From sequence record PQ850598.1: 46,037 nucleotides of DNA; one strand, given 5' to 3'. Shown piece by piece: positions 2,724 through 44,559 of this stretch (its first letter is position 1; each line of letters begins with the position of its first letter). The DNA is from Escherichia phage ClaudiaMuster_Bas77. The position numbers and the translations under genes were made by a program. The notes beneath the pieces were generated by a model, which worked only from the letters and a program-made list of their open reading frames with translations, was not told where the DNA came from and did no database searches.

Positions 2724-2754
2724 AATCTACATCATGCTTACCGGAGATATCACT

Positions 2755-3167: not shown

Positions 3168-3561
3168 ATTAAAGAAAATAATCCGCGATGCTGCGGATAA
3201 GAAGTACACCAAAAAGATTGACATATCATTTATCGACTGCACTGGACTGTACAATCACGCATGCCACCTGAATGCAGTGAACCGTGCACGGGATGGTAGT
3301 TCGTGCGCAGTGGTTGAGGTGGTTATGATTAATGATGATGGCGCAACAGCGCATTACATCAATATGCAGTCAGACGGCGCATACATCGACTACACGCTTG
3401 GATGGCACTGGTCTGGTGCTGATTACCGGTTTGTGCGGTTTGTTCCGTTTACTGAGTGGCCCGATATCACAGGATCGTTAAGCAAACTGAAAGCTGAACT
3501 GTGTAAGCCAGTGGCTAAATGGCAGAGGTTATTGATGGTAACTGATGGTGAACTTTGTTGA
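3154..3561 (+). CDS. hypothetical protein (135 aa)
   Basis: Track ORF 3103..3561; ATG at 3154 (MFRNKLKK) chosen. Confidence 0.5.
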   Translation: MFRNKLKKIIRDAADKKYTKKIDISFIDCTGLYNHACHLNAVNRARDGSSCAVVEVVMINDDGATAHYINMQSDGAYIDYTLGWHWSGADYRFVRFVPFTEWPDITGSLSKLKAELCKPVAKWQRLLMVTDGELC

Positions 3562-3569
3562 GGTGAGTG

Positions 3570-3743
3570 ATGAAAATCGAAGGTGATTACGGGCAGCATA
3601 TTATGGTTGATAAGGATTTCAAGTATGGTAACGACCTATTAGTAGTTAGGCAAACTGGTGATGTAATCGTCGTTGCAATTGAGCAAGCAGAGCAGCTTAT
3701 CGAAGTCCTGCAACGCTGGGTTAATGGTGAGGAGATTGAGTGA
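3570..3743 (+). CDS. hypothetical protein (57 aa)
   Basis: Hand-translated ORF below track cutoff: MKIEGDYGQHIMVDKDFKYGNDLLVVRQTGDVIVVAIEQAEQLIEVLQRWVNGEEIE; GGTGAG upstream; stop overlaps next start. Confidence 0.4.
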   Translation: MKIEGDYGQHIMVDKDFKYGNDLLVVRQTGDVIVVAIEQAEQLIEVLQRWVNGEEIE

Positions 3744-3928
3744 TGAGCGTTTATTTTATTCATGCTGAAGTGCTTAATGGTGGTGCTATTGTCGCAAAAA
3801 TATGTGCTGTTTCTACTGCATCTGACCCAGAAAGAGCATTTGATATGTTTTTTAATTGCGACAGGGTGAAAGGCCACGAAAGCAAAGGTCGTGATGTTGT
3901 AATTGATAAACTGGAAAAGGTGGAGTGA
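3743..3928 (+). CDS. hypothetical protein (61 aa)
   Basis: Track ORF 3740..3928; translationally coupled to neighbours. Confidence 0.4.
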   Translation: MSVYFIHAEVLNGGAIVAKICAVSTASDPERAFDMFFNCDRVKGHESKGRDVVIDKLEKVE

Positions 3929-4089
3929 TGGCACTATTCTGGTCGTTCTGGATTCCACTTAATTTTATGTTCTGGTGGGCTATGGCTGCCGGAGTGAATG
4001 AACCAAGCAGGATACATTTCATGGTTGGCTCATTTTTCGCTGTGGTAACTGGTATTGTGCCATGCTTGTTGTATCAATATTTCAAATAG
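3928..4089 (+). CDS. small hydrophobic protein (53 aa)
   Basis: Hand-translated: MALFWSFWIPLNFMFWWAMAAGVNEPSRIHFMVGSFFAVVTGIVPCLLYQYFK; ATG overlaps upstream stop. Confidence 0.4.
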   Translation: MALFWSFWIPLNFMFWWAMAAGVNEPSRIHFMVGSFFAVVTGIVPCLLYQYFK

Positions 4090-4099
4090 AGGTGGAGTG

Positions 4100-4348
4100 A
4101 TGATAGGGATAATTCTTACTCTTATCGTTACGGCGTTCTTTGTTTATATCCTGATAAGACATCAGCTTGTTTATATTGCCAGAGGAAGATTCATAAACTA
4201 CTTCTATACAGAAGACCATAATGGATATGCAGCCGGCAAGATATTCCATGAGTCGCTACCAAGCTACGATGAGATGCTGTGGAAATTCTGGGTGTGGCCT
4301 CTGTCAAAATTCTATCCGGCGTACAGAAATCGAAATCGCAATAAGTGA
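4100..4348 (+). CDS. small membrane protein (82 aa)
   Basis: Track ORF 4055..4348; ATG at 4100 (MIGIILTLIVTAFFVYILI) preceded by GGTGGAG; one clear TM helix. Confidence 0.5.
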   Translation: MIGIILTLIVTAFFVYILIRHQLVYIARGRFINYFYTEDHNGYAAGKIFHESLPSYDEMLWKFWVWPLSKFYPAYRNRNRNK

Positions 4349-4396: not shown

Positions 4397-5809
4397 ATGT
4401 CAAAAATTGATGCATTAAACGCCTATATACGCGACCGCGTGGCGAACAATAACCGGGCGCTTCAGCAGCAGCGGCTTTGTGCTGGCGGGAAGAATCTGGA
4501 CCAGAAACGTGAGTTCATGTGGAAGGAACTGGGCTACCCGCAGGAAATAACCGCCGAGATGTTCCGCTATGCATACGAGCGACATCCAGCCGCCGCCGCT
4601 GGCATTAACCGCATTATTAATAAATGCTGGCAGAAATACCCAGAAGTGGTTGAGGATGGCGAGGATGACAAGAACTCAACGTCGTGGGAGCTGTCCATCA
4701 ACGACATGATGAAGCGCGCCTACCCGTTCATCAAGGAGGCTGACAAGCGCAACGCCATCAACCGCTATTCCGCTGTTATCCTGCAAATCCGTGACGGCAA
4801 ACAGTGGAGTGAACCGGTAGACATCACCAAAACACGCCGCATTAAAGATAAATCCATTGTTCGCTTTATCCCAGTATGGGAAGAGCAACTCCGCGTCAGC
4901 GCATGGAATAACGATGAAACAAGTGAAGACTACGGCATGCCTGAGATGTACGAATATCAGGAAAGCGCCGTAGAGGATTTCGATAGCGACGGCAAGCCTG
5001 AGCGTTCCGTGCAGATTCATCCTGATCGCATTATCATTCTGGCAGAGGGTAGCTTCGATGGCAGTATGTTCAGTGGCATCCCGATGCTACGTGCTGGCTA
5101 CAACAGCCTTATCGACATGGCTAAGGTTTCCGGTAGTTCAGCAGAAGGCTTCCTGAAGAATGCCAGCCGTCAACTGGCTGTTAACTACACGAAGGACAAC
5201 GTAACGCCAGCAAGCCTTGCACAGTCAATGGGTGTATCTCAGGATGAGCTTATTGACATCATGAATGACAATATCGAGATGCTGAATTCTGGCATTGACG
5301 CTGCACTATTTAGCATGGGCGCCGAGACTCAGGTGTTATCCGTAACGCCAGCTGACCCGAAACCAACATGGGAAGTGGCTGCCAACCAGTTCGCTGCATC
5401 AATGGCGCTTCCGTTCACCGTCATTTTCGGGCAGCAAACCGGACGCCTTGCGAGTGATGAAGACAAGATGCAGGAGGCGATGACTGCCAAGCAGCGCCGA
5501 GAAACATGGGTGGATTATGTTATCTCAATGTTCGTTGAGCGCATGATTCAGTTCGGCATCGTCGATAAAGCACCGGCAAATGGCTACAAGGTTAAGTGGG
5601 ACGACCTGCTTGCTCCATCAGAGCTGGATAAGGCGGAGTTGCTGTCTAAGCTCGCCACTGCGAACAAGTCGTTCTTTGATGCTGGTCAATCTGCGTTGCT
5701 TACCGTCGATGAGGCTCGCGGCATGGTTGGTATGGAGCCGATTGAACTTGATGAAAGTTATCGCGAAGACACGCCACCGGAAGATGAAAATGAAGATACT
5801 CCGGTTTAA
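4397..5809 (+). CDS. portal protein
   Basis: 470-aa ORF following terminase, acidic C-terminus ([14 protein letters not shown]), overlaps start of Mu F-like head morphogenesis gene; size and position typical for a portal. Confidence 0.8.
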
Positions 5810-6740
5810 CGCAAGACTTCCGCAGCCGCGCATATCGCAGAGCCTGACCGACCCGTTAGGCGCTGCAACCCGCATGTCGAAGATGGACAAGGTGATAACG
5901 CGCAAATATAAGCAACTCAGGACTCGTGCGCTTGAGTTGTTTCGCACCATTCCGCATAGTCAGACTAACGCAGAATCAAGCGGTCTGTATTTCTATGATT
6001 TCAGTAGTGCGCGCGCCGCTACTTTCATGGATGAGTTGCAGGCGCTGATTGACGAGATTCTGCTGGAAGGTGACGACTTCAGTCACGGCAGGATGTGGGC
6101 CAATGTGTTCATCGGTGATGCGTATCAGGCAGGAACGCAGAAGGCCAACTCTGAACTATCAAGCCTGTCTCCGGTTTATGCCGAGCAGAGGCCTATTGCC
6201 GCGATACTCTACAGTGAGCCATATCTGAATCGGCTGCGGCTTGCGTATACAGCTGGTTACTCGGACTGGCGAGGATTGAGTGATTACTCACGCCAACAAC
6301 TGGCATCCGTCATTATGGAAGGCATTGCCCGTGGTGCCAATCCTCGAGATGTTGAAGCTGATATCGTCAAGCGTGTTGATGTATCTCATAGCTACGCGAA
6401 ACAGATAGCACAGACTGAAATCACCGGAACGCTGCGTCAGGCTAACAGAAGAGAAGTCATTGAGGCGCGCGAGGAATTAGGAATTGAAACGGTGATGCTG
6501 TGGCAATCGGCATTAATGCGCACGACACGCCAGACTCACGCGGCGAGACATGGAAGGTTTTACACGCCAGAAGAAATTGATACGTTTTATAGTGAAGTTG
6601 CTAACCGCAGGAATTGTCACTGTGCGCAAACTCCGGCGTTATTAATGGATGGGAAACCAGTCATTCTTGAGTCATCACAGGAAAGGCTTGATAAGCAGCG
6701 CGAGGCATGGCAATCAGCAAACAAAAAGCCCTCTAAGTGA
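5784..6740 (+). CDS. head morphogenesis protein (Mu F / SPP1 gp7-like)
   Basis: Track ORF 5580..6740 (out-of-frame overlap with portal); ATG at 5784 (MKMKILRF); ~318 aa directly after portal, characteristic position. Confidence 0.7.
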
Positions 6741-6753
6741 GGGCTTGGTTTTA
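6728..6753 (+). terminator. hairpin terminator (GCCCTC...GAGGGC + T-tract)
   Basis: Inverted repeat spanning the head-morphogenesis stop codon, followed by TTGGTTTTA; separates the plus-strand head genes from a minus-strand cassette. Confidence 0.45.
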
Positions 6754-6824
6754 TCTTATGAGCATACACAGAACGAATATTATTATCGCATAGCACAATA
6801 TCTCTACGACGCTGAATATTGTCT

Positions 6825-7433
6825 TTAATCATCAAGTTTCACGCCGGGAATTTTGCCTGCTGCGATGGCTTCATAAATTAGCTTAGCCTCATCCTCGCGC
6901 TTGTAATCTTGCGCTACCATTTCTAATACCGCGCAGATAGATTCAAGTACAGCCTCATGCTTCCTTTCTGCTTCTGTGCGAAATGGGATGAAAACATCCT
7001 TATTGGATGGGGTTATTGCGTAGTAAATCTCACCAGATGGTCTGATAACTATTTTTTCGCCATCAAGACCAATAACCTTGACTTTTCCCCATGACGTTCC
7101 GTTGCTGATATACTCACATTCACACCCAACTGGCGGCAGTCCTTCTCCGTTCCATGCTGAATTTTTCGATGCTGCGAGCGCTGCTTTGTATTGCCAATAG
7201 GTTACTATCGACTCCTTATGGTCGGAAGATAATGGCGTAGCCCATTCTTCTCCATACCAGAAATGCACAAGGCTATTGCCAGTGTGGTGTTTCCATGAGA
7301 ACCCTTCGTAGTGTGGGTCATTCGTGTCCCATACGCACAGTGAACCGTCATTATCTTGAGTAATTGACAGCGCGTTTTGAGGCCACCCACCACGCTTAGG
7401 CAATTCTTGAACTAACAGGTCGATAAGTTTCAT
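6825..7433 (-). CDS. hypothetical protein (202 aa)
   Basis: Track ORF; last gene of minus-strand cassette 6825-8112. Confidence 0.5.
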   Translation of the reverse strand: MKLIDLLVQELPKRGGWPQNALSITQDNDGSLCVWDTNDPHYEGFSWKHHTGNSLVHFWYGEEWATPLSSDHKESIVTYWQYKAALAASKNSAWNGEGLPPVGCECEYISNGTSWGKVKVIGLDGEKIVIRPSGEIYYAITPSNKDVFIPFRTEAERKHEAVLESICAVLEMVAQDYKREDEAKLIYEAIAAGKIPGVKLDD

Positions 7434-7445
7434 TTTTGTTCTCCG

Positions 7446-7661
7446 TTAATAATTTGGCTTTACGTCTTTCATTGTTAGTGGCTTCCATCCACTTGCGATT
7501 GCAATATCAATACAATCCTCAAGCGTTTCAGCTTTTATTGGCTCACCAACTTCACTATCATCAAATTTTCTCTGTATTTGATAGCCATCTACGACATAAA
7601 GAATCTCTACAGAACCATGTAGTGTGTGCATCGACTCAAGCCATTGCAGGTGGTAGCTCAT
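7446..7661 (-). CDS. hypothetical protein (71 aa)
   Basis: Track ORF; tightly packed with neighbours on minus strand. Confidence 0.45.
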   Translation of the reverse strand: MSYHLQWLESMHTLHGSVEILYVVDGYQIQRKFDDSEVGEPIKAETLEDCIDIAIASGWKPLTMKDVKPNY

Positions 7662-7978
7662 TTTGTTCCCCCTAATGCCTTATTAACCGCAGCACGCGCA
7701 TTATCTAGAGCGCGGCGCTTACTTGATGTTGTCCAGACTTTGCCGTCTGCAGAATCGTAGCATTCAATCATTTGCTGCGTAGCAATAATCAATTCGGAAA
7801 TAAGCATGTCGCGATATGCTAACTCAGCAGCAATAGCTGATTTTGAGTGCAATGATTCAGAGCTCATGGCGCCAACATGCTGTGAATAAAAGCCACCAAT
7901 TTCATCAAGGATATCTATATCCCGCTCTGCATACAGATTATTGCTGTCAGTCATTTGATATACTCCATAATCTCGCAT
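7658..7978 (-). CDS. hypothetical protein (106 aa)
   Basis: Track ORF; start overlaps upstream small ORF. Confidence 0.5.
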   Translation of the reverse strand: MRDYGVYQMTDSNNLYAERDIDILDEIGGFYSQHVGAMSSESLHSKSAIAAELAYRDMLISELIIATQQMIECYDSADGKVWTTSSKRRALDNARAAVNKALGGTK

Positions 7979-8112
7979 TCACGCATCTGCACCAGACTAA
8001 ATGGCGCAACCACTTTGCCGCATGGGCGGATTTTGATTTGCTCAAGGCCGAACATTCCGCAGCGTCCGTTTTCTTTGAATTTGACCATTACCATAATTTC
8101 TTCCTCACTCAT
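7951..8112 (-). CDS. hypothetical protein (53 aa)
   Basis: Hand-translated from reverse complement: MSEEEIMVMVKFKENGRCGMFGLEQIKIRPCGKVVAPFSLVQMRECEIMEYIK; first gene after minus-strand promoter. Confidence 0.4.
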   Translation of the reverse strand: MSEEEIMVMVKFKENGRCGMFGLEQIKIRPCGKVVAPFSLVQMRECEIMEYIK

Positions 8113-8126
8113 CGTTTGATGTAGAT

Positions 8127-8173
8127 ACTATGCACCACCACTCAATCTACGTCAATAGCCATTGTGATAGAAT
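8127..8173. promoter_or_regulatory. divergent promoter region with TCTAC-core motifs
   Basis: Minus strand: TTGACG (rc of 8150-8155), 17-nt spacer, CATAGT (rc of 8127-8132). Plus strand: extended -10 TGaTAGAAT at 8165-8173, ahead of the lysis cassette. Confidence 0.5.
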
Positions 8174-8199
8174 TAATCATTATTTGAACAGGAGGCAGA

Positions 8200-8478
8200 A
8201 TGAAACTATCGCAACGCGGCATGGAGGTGTTTGGAATTACCGATGCCGTAGATATATCGCCTTACATCACCACTGAGACAACACAGAATCAGTTTGATGC
8301 GCTGACAAGCCTTGCCACCGACATCGGCATTGACTCGTTCCGCAAATCAACGCTTCTGAAGAAACACAATCTCCGCTGCTTCTCATGTGTCGTCGCGCAT
8401 TTCATCGTGTGGGGTGAGAAGACTGGCGACAAAGCAAAACGCAAGGCTGAAAAAGAGGTTTACTGGTATGGCTATTAG
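8200..8478 (+). CDS. hypothetical protein (92 aa), first gene of lysis operon
   Basis: Track ORF with AGGAGG-like RBS; no TM helix, so not an obvious holin. Confidence 0.5.
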   Translation: MKLSQRGMEVFGITDAVDISPYITTETTQNQFDALTSLATDIGIDSFRKSTLLKKHNLRCFSCVVAHFIVWGEKTGDKAKRKAEKEVYWYGY

Positions 8479-9168: not shown

Positions 9169-9640
9169 ATACTGGCGACCACTGGCAATTATTATAATTG
9201 TTGTCTCTGGCGCGTTGTGGGCGCGTAGCGAAATCATCAGCTACGGCGACCAACGATACGCAGAAGGCAAATCCCAAGCAATCGCCGAACAGAAGGCCGC
9301 AGACGAACAAGAGGAGCAACGACGCAATGCAGAACTGCAAAAGATTCAGGCTGACGCACAGCAAAGGATTGACGCTGCGCGCAATGATGCTGTCAATGCT
9401 GCTGCTAAGTCTGGCAGGTTGCAGCAACAGCTCGCAAATATCCGCAAGCAGCTCGTCGGATATTCCACCGCTGAGTCCATTGGCAATCCAGCCGCAGAAA
9501 CCGGAGTTTTGCTTGGAGACGTGCTCGGCAAATCTGTCGAAAGAAATCGACAACTGGCAGATTATGCTGACAGGGCAAGAGAGGCAGGATTAGCGTGTGA
9601 GGCGCAGTATAATTCGCTGCGTAATAAAAAAGCCCCGTGA
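9149..9640 (+). CDS. i-spanin (Rz-like)
   Basis: N-terminal TM helix (PLAIIIIVVSGALWA) followed by Q/A/E/R-rich coiled-coil; last gene of lysis cassette. Confidence 0.7.
   Translation: MMSILAKYWRPLAIIIIVVSGALWARSEIISYGDQRYAEGKSQAIAEQKAADEQEEQRRNAELQKIQADAQQRIDAARNDAVNAAAKSGRLQQQLANIRKQLVGYSTAESIGNPAAETGVLLGDVLGKSVERNRQLADYADRAREAGLACEAQYNSLRNKKAP
9384..9593 (+). CDS. o-spanin (Rz1-like), embedded in +1 frame of Rz
   Basis: Internal ATG in track ORF 9198..9593; lipoprotein signal MMLSMLLLSLAGC (lipobox LAGC) then Pro-rich periplasmic segment; wholly inside the Rz gene. Confidence 0.65.
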   Translation: MMLSMLLLSLAGCSNSSQISASSSSDIPPLSPLAIQPQKPEFCLETCSANLSKEIDNWQIMLTGQERQD

Positions 9641-9658
9641 TGGGGCTTGTGTTTAATT
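9629..9658 (+). terminator. rho-independent terminator
   Basis: AGCCCC gtgat GGGGCT hairpin followed by TGTGTTTAATT at the end of the lysis cassette. Confidence 0.6.
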
Positions 9659-10954: not shown

Positions 10955-11020
10955 ATCTTGACGTTTCTACATCACTTAGTCAATACTTATTGACGTAGAT
11001 TGTACCACAACGGAAAAGGT
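10955..11020. promoter_or_regulatory. divergent regulatory region with GTTTCTACATCA and TTGACGTAGATTG motif copies
   Basis: Lies between divergently oriented gene starts (10930 minus, 11029 plus); contains two TTGACG hexamers and both motif variants; exact -10 elements ambiguous. Confidence 0.4.
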
Positions 11021-16935: not shown

Positions 16936-16938
16936 ACA

Positions 16939-16964
16939 AAACCCGCATCATGCGGGTTTTTTAT
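16939..16964. terminator. bidirectional rho-independent terminator
   Basis: ACCCGCAT c ATGCGGGT hairpin followed by TTTTTTATT; separates the plus-strand capsid operon from the converging minus-strand cassette. Confidence 0.65.
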
Positions 16965-19738: not shown

Positions 19739-19778
19739 TTCATCACCTCTAACATTTATTGTTGTTTCTACGTCACTA

Positions 19779-19830
19779 ACTATAAACGCACCATCAATCT
19801 ACGTCAACAGGAATATGCTAAAATCATGCT
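19779..19830. promoter_or_regulatory. divergent promoter region (minus: TTGACG-17-TATAGT) with motif copies
   Basis: On the minus strand, TTGACG (rc of 19802-19807), 17-nt spacer, TATAGT (rc of 19779-19784). GTTTCTACGTCA and CAATCTACGTCAA motif copies present; plus-strand TAAAAT near 19819 precedes the 19855 gene. Confidence 0.55.
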
Positions 19831-24733: not shown

Positions 24734-24782
24734 AATCTACATCACCACCTCGCAGGTGTCAACACCACTGAGATGATATAAT
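24734..24782. promoter_or_regulatory. divergent promoter region
   Basis: Minus strand: TTGACA (rc of 24757-24762), 17-nt spacer, TAGATT (rc of 24734-24739). Plus strand: extended -10 TGaTATAAT (24774-24782) ahead of 24803. Confidence 0.55.
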
Positions 24783-28002: not shown

Positions 28003-32724
<4,722 letters not shown>

Positions 32725-38054: not shown

Positions 38055-38082
38055 TTACTAACGATACATTAATCTACGTCAT
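38055..38082 (-). promoter_or_regulatory. promoter-like element upstream of the HNH-AP2 gene
   Basis: aTGACG-16-TAGTAA on the minus strand, embedded in a TAATCTACGTCA motif copy; overlaps the VRR-NUC stop. Confidence 0.35.
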
Positions 38083-40433: not shown

Positions 40434-40483
40434 TTGATGTTTCTACGTCAGTTAGCTTATACTCAATCTACACCAACAATCAA
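40434..40483. promoter_or_regulatory. divergent promoter region between helicase and primase-like genes
   Basis: Plus strand: TTGATG-18-TATACT (40434-40463). Minus strand: TTGATT-16-TATAAG (rc of 40456-40483). GTTTCTACGTCA and CAATCTACACCAA motif copies present. Confidence 0.45.
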
Positions 40484-44530: not shown

Positions 44531-44559
44531 TTGACGTAGAAACATCATTGATGTAGATT
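44531..44559 (+). promoter_or_regulatory. sigma70-like promoter (TTGACG-17-TAGATT)
   Basis: TTGACG, 17-nt spacer, TAGATT about 30 nt upstream of the 44590 ATG; contains GACGTAGAAAC and GATGTAGATTG motif copies. Confidence 0.55.

What the first reader, a model, noticed from the sequence alone, without database searches (positions are those of the whole stretch)
6825..8112. Minus-strand cassette of four unknown genes between head-morphogenesis and lysis genes
Genes of 53, 106, 71 and 202 aa, tightly coupled, have their own promoter (TTGACG-17-CATAGT at ~8127-8155) and end near the 6728-6753 hairpin. None matches a family I can recognise. This is the same insertion pattern as the other minus-strand cassettes, indicating modular acquisition.
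Basis: seen in the sequence. Interest (0 to 1): 0.4.

Follow-up and report, generated by a model that had tools for sequence, protein, structure and literature searches.

The report
Non-essential mosaic accessory operon, Skatevirus phage
Four small leftward genes between the head and lysis genes of this Skatevirus-type phage are real, conserved and co-transcribed, but three of them can be deleted from a close relative without killing it, so they are ordinary accessory genes of unknown function built from swappable protein modules.

Summary
Window 6825-8112 carries four translationally coupled minus-strand genes, headed by a conserved sigma-70-like promoter and ended by a bidirectional terminator (6726-6746). 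Two starts need correcting: orfA is probably 47 aa (7951-8094) and orfB 98 aa (7658-7954).

All four are under purifying selection (dN/dS 0.02-0.49). None matches Pfam, NCBIfam, PADLOC or PDB significantly. Three match PHROGs of unknown function.

The window is a complete phage genome, 98.5% identical to Escherichia phage Bas79 (Skatevirus group). The cassette is not an insertion: all nine phages inspected (this one included) fill the same slot with orfA-, orfB- and orfD-type genes. Exchange happens below cassette level:
- orfC (71 aa) is sporadic and is replaced by an HNH endonuclease in Bas80.
- orfB and orfD are mosaics with constant ends and swapped internal modules.

Viable genome-reduced mutants of Salmonella phage seszw lack the orfB, orfC and orfD orthologues, so these are dispensable. 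An independent survey drew two "accessory genes" for its screen from the same slot in phage Akira. The promoter carries a motif (TGAYGTAGA, 13 copies against 0.6 expected) also found ahead of the helicase and recombination genes, which suggests early or middle expression.

Best reading: a non-essential host-interaction operon. Its biochemical function is unresolved.

The parts
8127..8155 (-). Sigma-70-like promoter TTGACG-17-CATAGT for the cassette. Its -35 lies inside one copy of the phage-specific motif TGAYGTAGA (8146-8154).
   Evidence: invariant in 7 of 8 aligned phages; pattern found twice, 0.04 expected.
8117..8125 (+). Second, inverted copy of the TGAYGTAGA motif. With 8146-8154(-) it forms an imperfect 11-bp inverted repeat (TTGACGTAGAT / ATCTACATCAA) bracketing the promoter spacer and -10. 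Possibly a regulator site.
   Evidence: conserved in alignment A4. The regulator-site function is inferred.
8103..8106 (-). Conserved GAGG ribosome-binding site of the first cassette gene. It is conserved even where a different gene follows it in relatives.
7951..8094 (-). orfA, 47 aa (the longest ORF reaches 8112, 53 aa). phrog_21280, unknown function. Confined to Skatevirus-type phages and highly conserved.
   Evidence: E 9e-33; dN/dS 0.07-0.30; 145 phage records.
7658..7954 (-). orfB, 98 aa (the longest ORF reaches 7978, 106 aa). Predicted all-helical. It is a chimera: the N-terminal ~55-aa module (phrog_34533) is shared with unrelated phage lineages, and the C-terminal ~45 aa is constant in the Skatevirus slot (close homologues are tagged PF27050).
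   Evidence: (pLDDT 75.9).
7446..7661 (-). orfC, 71 aa, with no PHROG or Pfam match. A sporadic accessory gene (39 phage records; 9NA gp19 is a homologue). Replaced by an HNH endonuclease in Bas80.
   Evidence: dN/dS 0.024 against Seszw_1.
6825..7433 (-). orfD, 202 aa, phrog_7798. A three-part mosaic protein: an alpha/beta N-domain, a small SH3/Tudor-like beta-barrel (about residues 105-149) and a helical hairpin. The constant parts are the first 20 residues, the AWNGEGLPPVGCECE linker and the AIAAGKIPGVKLDD tail.
   Evidence: pLDDT 71.5; 2422 clusters.
6726..6746 (.). Bidirectional intrinsic terminator hairpin. It is shared with the convergent head-morphogenesis gene, whose stop codon ends at 6740.

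Best explanation
This is a non-essential accessory operon that occupies a fixed slot in Skatevirus-type siphophages, between the Mu-F-like head-morphogenesis gene and the lysis genes.

Host RNA polymerase is proposed to start at a conserved sigma-70-like promoter in the 88-bp divergent region shared with the lysis genes. It would read leftward through four translationally coupled genes and stop at a bidirectional terminator.

The products are small soluble proteins with no catalytic signatures. orfB (a helical hairpin) and orfD (N-domain, small beta-barrel and helical hairpin) have constant ends and freely exchanged internal modules. I read them as binding or adaptor proteins acting on host or competitor targets (host takeover, counter-defence or inter-phage competition). 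They are probably made early or in the middle of infection, together with the replication genes.

Shown: gene structure, coding constraint, conserved slot and promoter, mosaicism, and dispensability of the orfB, orfC and orfD orthologues. Inferred: the timing of expression, action by binding, and the target class.
For: Gene structure and coupling.

Purifying selection on all four genes.

The same slot, leader and three gene types occur in all nine phages inspected.

Dispensability:
- Viable CRISPR-reduced mutants of Salmonella phage seszw (Yuan et al. 2022, PMC9825161) lack the region.
- In MZ375349 the stretch L005:1305-2628 is gone apart from a 32-bp junction remnant. It carried the orfD-, orfC- and orfB-type genes plus a 64-aa membrane gene.

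Independent choice of genes from the slot: Silas et al. 2023 (bioRxiv 10.1101/2023.04.06.535777) took two genes from this same slot in phage Akira into their accessory-gene screen. One of them is an orfB-family protein.

Mosaicism and horizontal spread:
- Per-segment nucleotide identity in orfD is bimodal (84-97% or 36-55%), with different partner phages for each segment.
- Among 115 close homologues there are 9, 14 and 11 allele classes for the three modules, in 33 combinations.
- The orfB N-module occurs in 138 phage records of unrelated lineages.
- orfC lies in other opposite-strand gene islands in 9NA and Carvaje.

Composition: the cassette is 41-47% G+C against 50-54% in the flanking structural genes.

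Promoter class: TGAYGTAGA occurs 13 times against 0.62 expected. It sits at the heads of this cassette, cassettes 2 and 3, the helicase gene and the HNH-exonuclease-SSB operon.

No enzyme, transmembrane or structural-protein signal was found.
Against: - There are no expression data. The promoter hexamers alone are no better than chance, and Seszw_1 carries an 18-bp deletion in the spacer.
- The shared motif could be an operator for a late regulator rather than a mark of early promoters.
- Three of the four genes are present in every relative and are under purifying selection, which is more conserved than typical accessory genes.
- The orfA orthologue is retained in every reduced seszw genome I saw, down to 36.0 kb, so orfA may not be dispensable.
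- The orfB-family protein screened by Silas et al. is not mentioned in their main text, so no phenotype is reported there for it.
- Dispensability was shown on one laboratory Salmonella host, for orthologues whose alleles partly differ from those in the window.
Confidence: 0.55

Rival explanations
1. The proteins regulate phage or host gene expression by binding nucleic acid or RNA polymerase. For example, the small beta-barrel of orfD could act like the Tudor-type domains of UvrD or CarD, or like Hfq or the ProQ C-terminal domain, and orfA could be a mini DNA-binding protein. They might control the switch between the divergent cassette and lysis promoters.
For: - One family member matches Pfam Phage_ProQ_C_like at E 0.004.
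- The orfA profile weakly resembles Sso7d/Sac7d (E 0.3).
- The cassette promoter is bracketed by an inverted repeat of a motif that marks many promoters.
Against: - The barrel is the most freely swapped module (14 allele classes), which is odd for a domain that would bind a conserved polymerase or RNA.
- The orfB, orfC and orfD orthologues are dispensable, so they are not the essential temporal regulator.
Confidence: 0.15
2. The genes are largely selfish or neutral cargo. They would persist because they sit in a recombination hot spot next to a homing-endonuclease target, with little benefit to the phage.
For: - An HNH endonuclease occupies the orfC position in Bas80, and one lies next to the orfD-type gene in Sf11.
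- orfC is sporadic and appears in unrelated phages.
- The genes are deletable, and the paper reports that its optimal reduced seszw mutant outcompeted wild type in the laboratory. I did not check that mutant's deletions.
Against: - Purifying selection is strong. orfC has dN/dS 0.024 and keeps about 69% amino-acid identity where synonymous sites are saturated; orfA has dN/dS 0.07-0.17.
- orfA-, orfB- and orfD-type genes are kept in all nine phages inspected.
- The orfD family comprises 2422 clusters at 50% identity.
- Constant motifs are maintained at the protein level.
Confidence: 0.15
3. The genes are auxiliary head-assembly or lysis-timing factors, as their position between the head-morphogenesis and lysis genes might suggest.
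For: - Position only.
- The promoter region is shared with the lysis genes.
- NX263 and Seszw_1 add a 64-aa membrane protein at the end of the cassette.
Against: - They lie on the opposite strand from both neighbouring modules.
- None of the four window proteins matched a family of membrane, lysis or virion proteins, and their sequences show no obvious hydrophobic stretch; no transmembrane predictor was run.
- Deleting the orfB-D orthologues leaves plaque-forming phage.
- orfC homologues lie elsewhere (between terminase and portal) in 9NA.
- All relatives annotate them as hypothetical, never as virion proteins.
Confidence: 0.08
4. Some or all of the ORFs are chance reading frames, not genes.
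For: They are short ORFs without a known family. The raw promoter scan is not above chance.
Against: - dN/dS is well below 1 for all four.
- Hundreds to thousands of homologues of conserved length exist.
- The junctions are coupled by ATGA overlaps and ribosome-binding sites.
- GC skew flips to match the minus strand across the cassette.
Confidence: 0.01

Closest known systems
Phage accessory regions and accessory genes, as defined by Silas et al. 2023 (bioRxiv 10.1101/2023.04.06.535777)
   Same: - A cluster of small, variable, horizontally exchanged genes of unknown function sits between conserved core genes of related enterobacteriophages.
- The study took genes from the very same slot in Salmonella phage Akira into its screen: UDP0020 and UDP0110, the latter an orfB-family protein.
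- The orfB-D orthologues are non-essential.
   Different: - Three of the four gene types are present in every relative examined, so this is a semi-conserved operon with variable inserts and variable modules, not a fully variable hot spot.
- No counter-defence phenotype is known for any member.
Morons of lambdoid phages (Juhala, Hendrix and colleagues; from my own knowledge)
   Same: An autonomous transcription unit with its own promoter and terminator, placed between genes of the late region, with lower G+C than its neighbours.
   Different: - Morons are defined by presence or absence between otherwise adjacent genes and are typically expressed from prophages.
- Here the slot is filled in all nine phages inspected. 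At DNA level the cassette has no match on the chromosomes of 5,426 complete E. coli genomes; the only hits are a 58-nt stretch on five ~95-kb plasmids.
Mosaic early-region proteins of lambdoid and P1-like phages (DUF551 proteins, ead/Ea22-like proteins)
   Same: - Small proteins assembled from short shuffled modules.
- The orfB N-module is fused to DUF551 in P0165.
- The orfD N-domain is homologous (E 1e-11) to part of a 310-aa protein in a P1-like IncY plasmid-prophage, in a region that also encodes DUF551 and Ea22-like proteins.
   Different: None of the four window proteins matches DUF551 or any other Pfam model, and orfB showed no similarity to the one Ea22-like protein I compared it with. 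The functions of those families are themselves unknown.
T4 internal proteins (constant N-terminal capsid-targeting sequence with a hypervariable body; from my own knowledge and the Silas et al. supplement)
   Same: The architecture is a short, nearly invariant N-terminus followed by variable cargo. In orfD the first 20 codons are almost codon-identical in all phages compared.
   Different: There is no evidence that orfD is packaged. It lies on the opposite strand from the head genes, it also has a constant C-terminal tail, and I looked for no prohead-protease cleavage motif.

Membership tests
Phage accessory region (Silas et al. 2023) | Variable gene content between conserved flanking core genes in related genomes | tested here: met
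   All nine phages inspected (the window and eight relatives) share the head-morphogenesis and lysis flanks but carry 4-6 different gene sets in the slot.
Phage accessory region (Silas et al. 2023) | Genes are non-essential for lytic growth | tested here: met
   Met for the orfB, orfC and orfD orthologues: they are deleted in viable seszw mutants. Not shown for orfA, which is retained in all reduced genomes seen.
Phage accessory region (Silas et al. 2023) | Frequent horizontal transfer and rapid diversification | tested here: met
   orfC is sporadic across lineages. The orfB N-module occurs in unrelated phages. orfD modules assort independently.
Phage accessory region (Silas et al. 2023) | Products antagonise host defences or competitors | not testable with these tools
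   There is no anti-defence library here. PADLOC gave no significant match. This needs genetics.
Moron | Own promoter and terminator | tested here: met
   Consensus-level sites that are conserved across phages. No transcript data.
Moron | Whole unit present or absent between genes that are adjacent in related phages | tested here: not met
   All nine phages inspected (the window and eight relatives) have the unit.
PHROG families 21280 (orfA), 34533 (orfB N-module) and 7798 (orfD) | Significant match to the family HMM | tested here: met
   E-values 9.4e-33, 3.7e-16 and 1.1e-50. All three are 'unknown function'. orfC matches none.
Pfam PF27050 (orfB C-terminal part) | Match to the Pfam HMM above its gathering score | tested here: inconclusive
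   The model is absent from the local Pfam copy: P0044 is tagged with it, yet one search returns nothing. Homologues 76-92% identical to orfB carry the precomputed tag. I do not know the family's name.
SH3/Tudor-like small beta-barrel (orfD residues ~105-149) | Fold match to solved small beta-barrels | tested here: inconclusive
SUKH / SMI1-KNR4 (orfD N-domain) | Match to a SUKH Pfam model | tested here: not met
   SUKH_5 gives E 0.11 and 12.8 bits against a cut-off of 27. The model confidence is low for residues 38-73.
DUF551 | Match to PF04448 | tested here: not met
   No hit for any of the four proteins at E <= 1, nor for 150 orfD-family members at E <= 0.01. Only a distant orfB N-module relative (P0165) carries it.
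Sso7d/Sac7d or ribosomal protein uS8 (orfA) | Significant sequence similarity | tested here: not met
   uS8 gives E 0.015 with the single sequence but 0.54 with the family profile; Sso7d gives E 0.3. The cysteines and the IRPC motif are not conserved in Bas81.
Known anti-phage defence system components (PADLOC) | Match to a PADLOC model | tested here: not met
   The only hit is orfC against PDC-M05B at E 0.038 and 12 bits.

The most novel reading that the evidence does not exclude
orfD represents a very large, entirely uncharacterised family of 'polymorphic' phage proteins. The family has at least 2,400 clusters at 50% identity and occurs in virulent phages of Enterobacteria, Klebsiella, Pseudomonas, Vibrio and Aeromonas, and in P1-like plasmid-prophages. 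A constant N-terminal segment and a constant C-terminal tail (AIAAGKIPGVKL) would dock to a conserved partner, while freely recombining internal modules (N-domains, small beta-barrels, helical hairpins, sometimes in two or three copies) each recognise a different host target. This would be a modular counter-defence or host-targeting platform, working together with the similarly built orfB.
Probability: 0.2. Interest if true: 0.65.

Novelty: new member of a known kind. Interest (0 to 1): 0.3.

Why it matters
As it stands the result is ordinary. The genes are already annotated as hypothetical proteins in near-identical phages, and genes from the same slot in a related phage have already been taken into an accessory-gene screen.

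The useful outcomes are these:
- Corrected gene starts for orfA and orfB.
- Dispensability: three of the four gene types are experimentally dispensable in a relative, so morphogenesis and lysis roles are unlikely.
- Mosaic map: a clear module map of orfB and orfD with constant docking-like ends.
- Promoter motif: a phage-specific motif links the cassette to the replication-gene promoters.

Because the closest phages belong to the BASEL collection and can be grown on E. coli K-12 with restored O-antigen, the operon is a convenient entry point. It could be used to study a very large family of unknown phage proteins.

Tried and rejected
- Pfam, NCBIfam and PADLOC scans of all four proteins found nothing significant.
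- Sequence searches of PDB with single proteins and with family profiles found nothing significant.
- The weak orfA hits to uS8 and Sso7d were rejected. The uS8 score fell when a family profile was used, and the motif residues are not conserved.
- The afdb50 library was unavailable.
- Pfam scans of 150 diverse orfD-family representatives, and separately of ten long ones, found no recurring domain.
- Rfam on 6500-8400 returned only a sub-threshold Trp-leader hit over the terminator. There are no tRNAs.
- Literature: Zeng et al. 2019 on 9NA-like phages is not held. The supplementary tables of Yuan et al. 2022 are not held, so I used the deposited mutant genomes instead. There are no papers on PF27050, and no transcriptome of a Skatevirus was found.
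- A search of complete E. coli genomes found only a 58-nt match to the constant start of orfD, on P1-like plasmids.
Full report
**What the window is.** The 46,037-bp window is a complete siphophage genome. Its first 25 kb is 98.5% identical, over 94% of its length, to Escherichia phage SusanneMuster_Bas79. It is also close to Bas78 and Bas80. Humolli et al. 2025 (PMC11990801) place Bas77-81 in a cluster formed mainly by the genus Skatevirus. These are small siphoviruses that depend on O16 O-antigen. Upstream of the finding lie the portal gene (4397-5809) and a Mu-F-like head-morphogenesis gene ending at 6740. Downstream lie the lysis genes from 8200.

**Checking the observation.**
- The ORF list shows the four minus-strand ORFs exactly as described.
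- Read on the minus strand, orfA's stop overlaps orfB's start in ATGA (7951-7954).
- orfB's stop overlaps orfC's start in ATGA (7658-7661).
- orfC and orfD are 12 nt apart, with GGAG in the gap.
- orfB homologues are 98 aa, so the start is 7954, not 7978.
- For orfA, four results favour the ATG at 8094 (47 aa):
  - The 47-position PHROG profile aligns to residues 7-53.
  - Relatives annotate 144-nt genes.
  - The conserved GAGG lies between the two candidate ATGs.
  - Only the 47-aa sequence exists in the public protein collection.
- The terminator hairpin is at 6726-6746 and is scored on both strands. The stop codon of the head-morphogenesis gene lies inside it.

**The promoter.**
- The hexamer scan finds TTGACG-17-CATAGT at 8155..8127, but it finds no more such sites in the region than in shuffled sequence.
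- The case for a real promoter rests on conservation. The divergent intergenic region is almost invariant in eight phages. This covers both hexamers, the following ATCTACATCAA and the GAGG, even where the first downstream gene differs. That gene is a 127-aa ORF in NX263, a 92-aa gene in swi2 and a 100-aa gene in Seszw_1.
- Seszw_1 has an 18-bp deletion in the spacer, which is an exception.
- The pattern TTGACG-N16-18-YATAGT occurs twice in the genome, against 0.04 expected. Both copies lie on the minus strand at the head of a minus-strand cassette: this one and 19779-19807.

**Are they genes?** Pairwise Nei-Gojobori estimates against relatives give:

| Gene | dN/dS |
|---|---|
| orfA | 0.07-0.30 |
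| orfB | 0.10-0.28 (0.75 for a 44-codon C-terminal comparison with Bas79) |
| orfC | 0.024 against Seszw_1; about 69% amino-acid identity to 9NA and Carvaje where synonymous sites are saturated |
| orfD | 0.15-0.49 |

GC skew switches sign over the cassette, as expected for minus-strand coding. G+C falls to 41-47% against 50-54% in the flanks.

**Synteny.** I fetched the slot from Bas79, Bas80, NX263, swi2, Seszw_1, Bas81, SB28 and Akira and compared the proteins for seven of them; for Akira only gene order, lengths and pairwise codon comparisons were used.
- Every phage has a leftward cassette here. Each contains an orfD-type gene (189-218 aa) next to the terminator, an orfB-type gene (91-118 aa) and an orfA-type gene (45-47 aa).
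- orfC is present only in the window, Bas78, Bas79 and seszw within this group.
- At the orfC position Bas80 has an HNH endonuclease, NX263 and Bas81 a 74-aa cysteine-containing protein, and SB28 nothing.
- Several phages add a gene between the leader and orfA. NX263 and Seszw_1 add a 64-aa membrane protein after orfD.
- The window is itself a recombinant of circulating types. Its orfB is the Bas80 allele (97% identity) and not the Bas79 one. Its orfC is the Bas79 allele (100% identity).
- orfC homologues occur in 39 phage records. In 9NA (gp19), Carvaje and SCNJ1-C they lie in other opposite-strand islands of small genes.

**Mosaic proteins: orfD.**
- The alignment shows a constant first 20 residues, a constant AWNGEGLPPVGCECE linker and a constant C-terminal IYxAIAAGKIPGVKLDD. 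Three variable stretches lie between them.
- Segment by segment, nucleotide identity to other phages is bimodal, with different partners for each segment:

| Segment | Close partners (identity) | Other phages compared |
|---|---|---|
| N-domain | NX263, Bas81, swi2 (84-93%) | 39-44% |
| Barrel | NX263 only (97%) | 36-43% |
| Helical part | Seszw_1 only (92%) | 42-55% |

- The first 20 codons are almost codon-identical in all phages. This suggests a recombination linker or a constraint at the nucleotide level, in addition to protein function.
- Among 115 close homologues the three modules fall into 9, 14 and 11 classes in 33 combinations. All four combinations of barrel classes 0 and 2 with helix classes 0 and 2 occur, which indicates recombination between these modules.
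- The family is very large. There are 2,992 clusters at 90% identity and 2,422 representatives at 50% identity with E <= 0.001. It appears in 220 phage records from Klebsiella, Salmonella, Escherichia, Pseudomonas, Erwinia, Vibrio and Aeromonas phages.
- Longer members repeat the N-domain up to three times or add 'WIEWGGGECPV...IIAYRL' modules.

**Mosaic proteins: orfB.**
- orfB is built in a similar way. Its last ~45 residues are constant in the slot, and close homologues carry the precomputed tag PF27050. The N-terminal half is swapped.
- The window's N-module (LYAERD...LHSKSAIAAELAYRDMLI, phrog_34533) occurs in 138 phage records. These include large (~110-kb) Klebsiella phages, Escherichia phage Seurat, ~70-kb E. 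coli myophages such as vB_EcoM_WFC, and a 258-kb phage.
- Elsewhere the module is fused to DUF551 (P0165).

**Structure and remote homology.**
- AlphaFold2 models orfD with mean pLDDT 71.5 and pTM 0.39. It has an alpha/beta N-domain (low confidence for residues 38-73), a five-strand barrel (105-149, pLDDT 82-88) and a helical hairpin.
- orfB is all-helical (pLDDT 75.9) and has only generic helical matches.
- Pfam, NCBIfam, PADLOC and PDB sequence or profile searches are negative.
- orfA shows weak resemblances to uS8 and to Sso7d. Neither survives a profile search or the check on residue conservation.

**Dispensability.**
- Yuan et al. 2022 (PMC9825161) generated genome-reduced mutants of the Skatevirus seszw and deposited the genomes. 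They also report spontaneous loss of a large fragment covering genes 69-71.
- With the Seszw_1 cassette as query, many mutants retain only its promoter-proximal 30%.
- In seszw_280L (MZ375349) the stretch L005:1305-2628 is deleted, apart from a 32-bp junction remnant. It carried the 64-aa membrane gene and the orfD-, orfC- and orfB-type genes.
- In seszw_290L the gene between the leader and orfA is also gone. That leaves the promoter and the orfA-type gene as the only remnant of the cassette.
- The orfB-D orthologues are therefore not needed for plaque formation on the laboratory host. orfA was retained in every reduced genome listed, including one of 35,993 bp.

**Independent choice of genes from the slot.** Supplementary File 3 of Silas et al. 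2023 lists the accessory genes taken into their screen. It includes QBZ71463 and QBZ71465 of Salmonella phage Akira. These are the first and third genes of this same slot, and QBZ71465 is an orfB-family protein. Neither is discussed in the main text, so no phenotype is reported there.

**Promoter class.**
- The -35 region belongs to a longer motif. TGAYGTAGA occurs 13 times against 0.62 expected, and the largest count in 100 shuffles was 4.
- Copies lie at these places:
  - this cassette, as an inverted pair at 8117-8125(+) and 8146-8154(-);
  - the divergent region of cassette 2 (10966-, 10991+);
  - cassette 3 (19767-, 19798-);
  - upstream of the HNH-exonuclease-annealing-SSB operon (38073-);
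  - upstream of the helicase gene (40442-);
  - at 44532+ and 44549+.
- Three further copies (2726-, 24736-, 28695-) lie elsewhere and were not examined.
- I infer, but have not shown, that the cassette is expressed with the replication genes. I also infer that the inverted pair could be a site for a regulator of the two divergent promoters.

**Conclusion.**
- The finding is a real operon with ordinary biology. It is a semi-conserved accessory region whose content is exchanged by the gene and by the module.
- Its products are most plausibly binding proteins used in host or competitor interactions.
- No tool result identifies a target, so the function stays inferred.
- Novelty is low for the locus: it is annotated as hypothetical in Bas79, and genes from the same slot in Akira were already taken into an accessory-gene screen.
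- The size and modular build of the orfD family are the one aspect that could repay experiments.

Noticed in passing
window 2726-2734(-), 8117-8125(+), 8146-8154(-), 10966-10974(-), 10991-10999(+), 19767-19775(-), 19798-19806(-), 24736-24744(-), 28695-28703(-), 38073-38081(-), 40442-40450(-), 44532-44540(+), 44549-44557(+): The 9-mer TGAYGTAGA occurs 13 times against 0.62 expected. Most copies lie in intergenic promoter regions and often come in pairs 17-31 bp apart. A related form, GACGTAGAAACA, recurs at 19767, 40442 and 44532. This looks like a phage-specific promoter or operator element.
   Followed up: partly
window 6726-6746, 9630-9648, 16938-16960: Strong bidirectional terminator hairpins sit at each convergent junction between a plus-strand late module and a minus-strand cassette. 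Terminator-like sites are enriched overall: 33 found against 18.4 expected in the first 20 kb.
   Followed up: partly
window 7446-7954 compared with L001 (Bas79) and L002 (Bas80): Within the cassette the window is a recombinant of two co-isolated BASEL phages. Its orfB is the Bas80 allele (97% amino-acid identity) and its orfC is the Bas79 allele (100%). Bas80 has an HNH endonuclease where orfC lies.
   Followed up: yes
L003 (Salmonella phage NX263) 4615-4998, minus strand: A 127-aa ORF lies directly behind the conserved leader and GAGG site, in a 500-bp stretch that the GenBank record leaves unannotated.
   Followed up: no
L013 (seszw_290L, MZ375351) and MZ375352 (35,993 bp): In the most reduced viable seszw genomes the only cassette gene left is the 47-aa orfA orthologue, now directly behind the promoter as in the window. 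This hints that orfA may be required, or was never successfully targeted.
   Followed up: partly
window 7951-8094 (orfA): The N-terminal 29 residues (MVMVKFKENGRCG.F.LEQIKIRPCGKVV) and the APF.LVQMRE stretch resemble the two ends of Sso7d/Sac7d (E 0.3). Residues 14-44 resemble eukaryotic uS8 (E 0.015 for the single sequence, 0.54 for the profile). Neither is significant.
   Followed up: partly
L014 (E. coli plasmid pMTY1586_IncY, P1-like) 3275-4207: A 310-aa hypothetical protein contains a homologue of the orfD N-domain (E 1e-11). It lies in a region that also encodes a DUF551 protein and an ead/Ea22-like protein. The only DNA matches to the cassette in 5,426 complete E. coli genomes are 58-nt hits to the constant start of orfD on five such plasmids.
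   Followed up: partly
window 8200-8478: The 92-aa first gene of the lysis module is annotated 'endolysin' or 'lysozyme' in relatives. It is much shorter than the 154-aa gene that follows it (annotated as a glycoside hydrolase family 104 protein in NX263) and overlaps it by 11 nt. Its real role was not examined.
   Followed up: no
window 8160-8174, plus strand: By eye, an extended -10-like sequence TGATAGAAT lies upstream of the lysis genes inside the conserved divergent region. It was not picked up by the scan because there is no -35 match.
   Followed up: no
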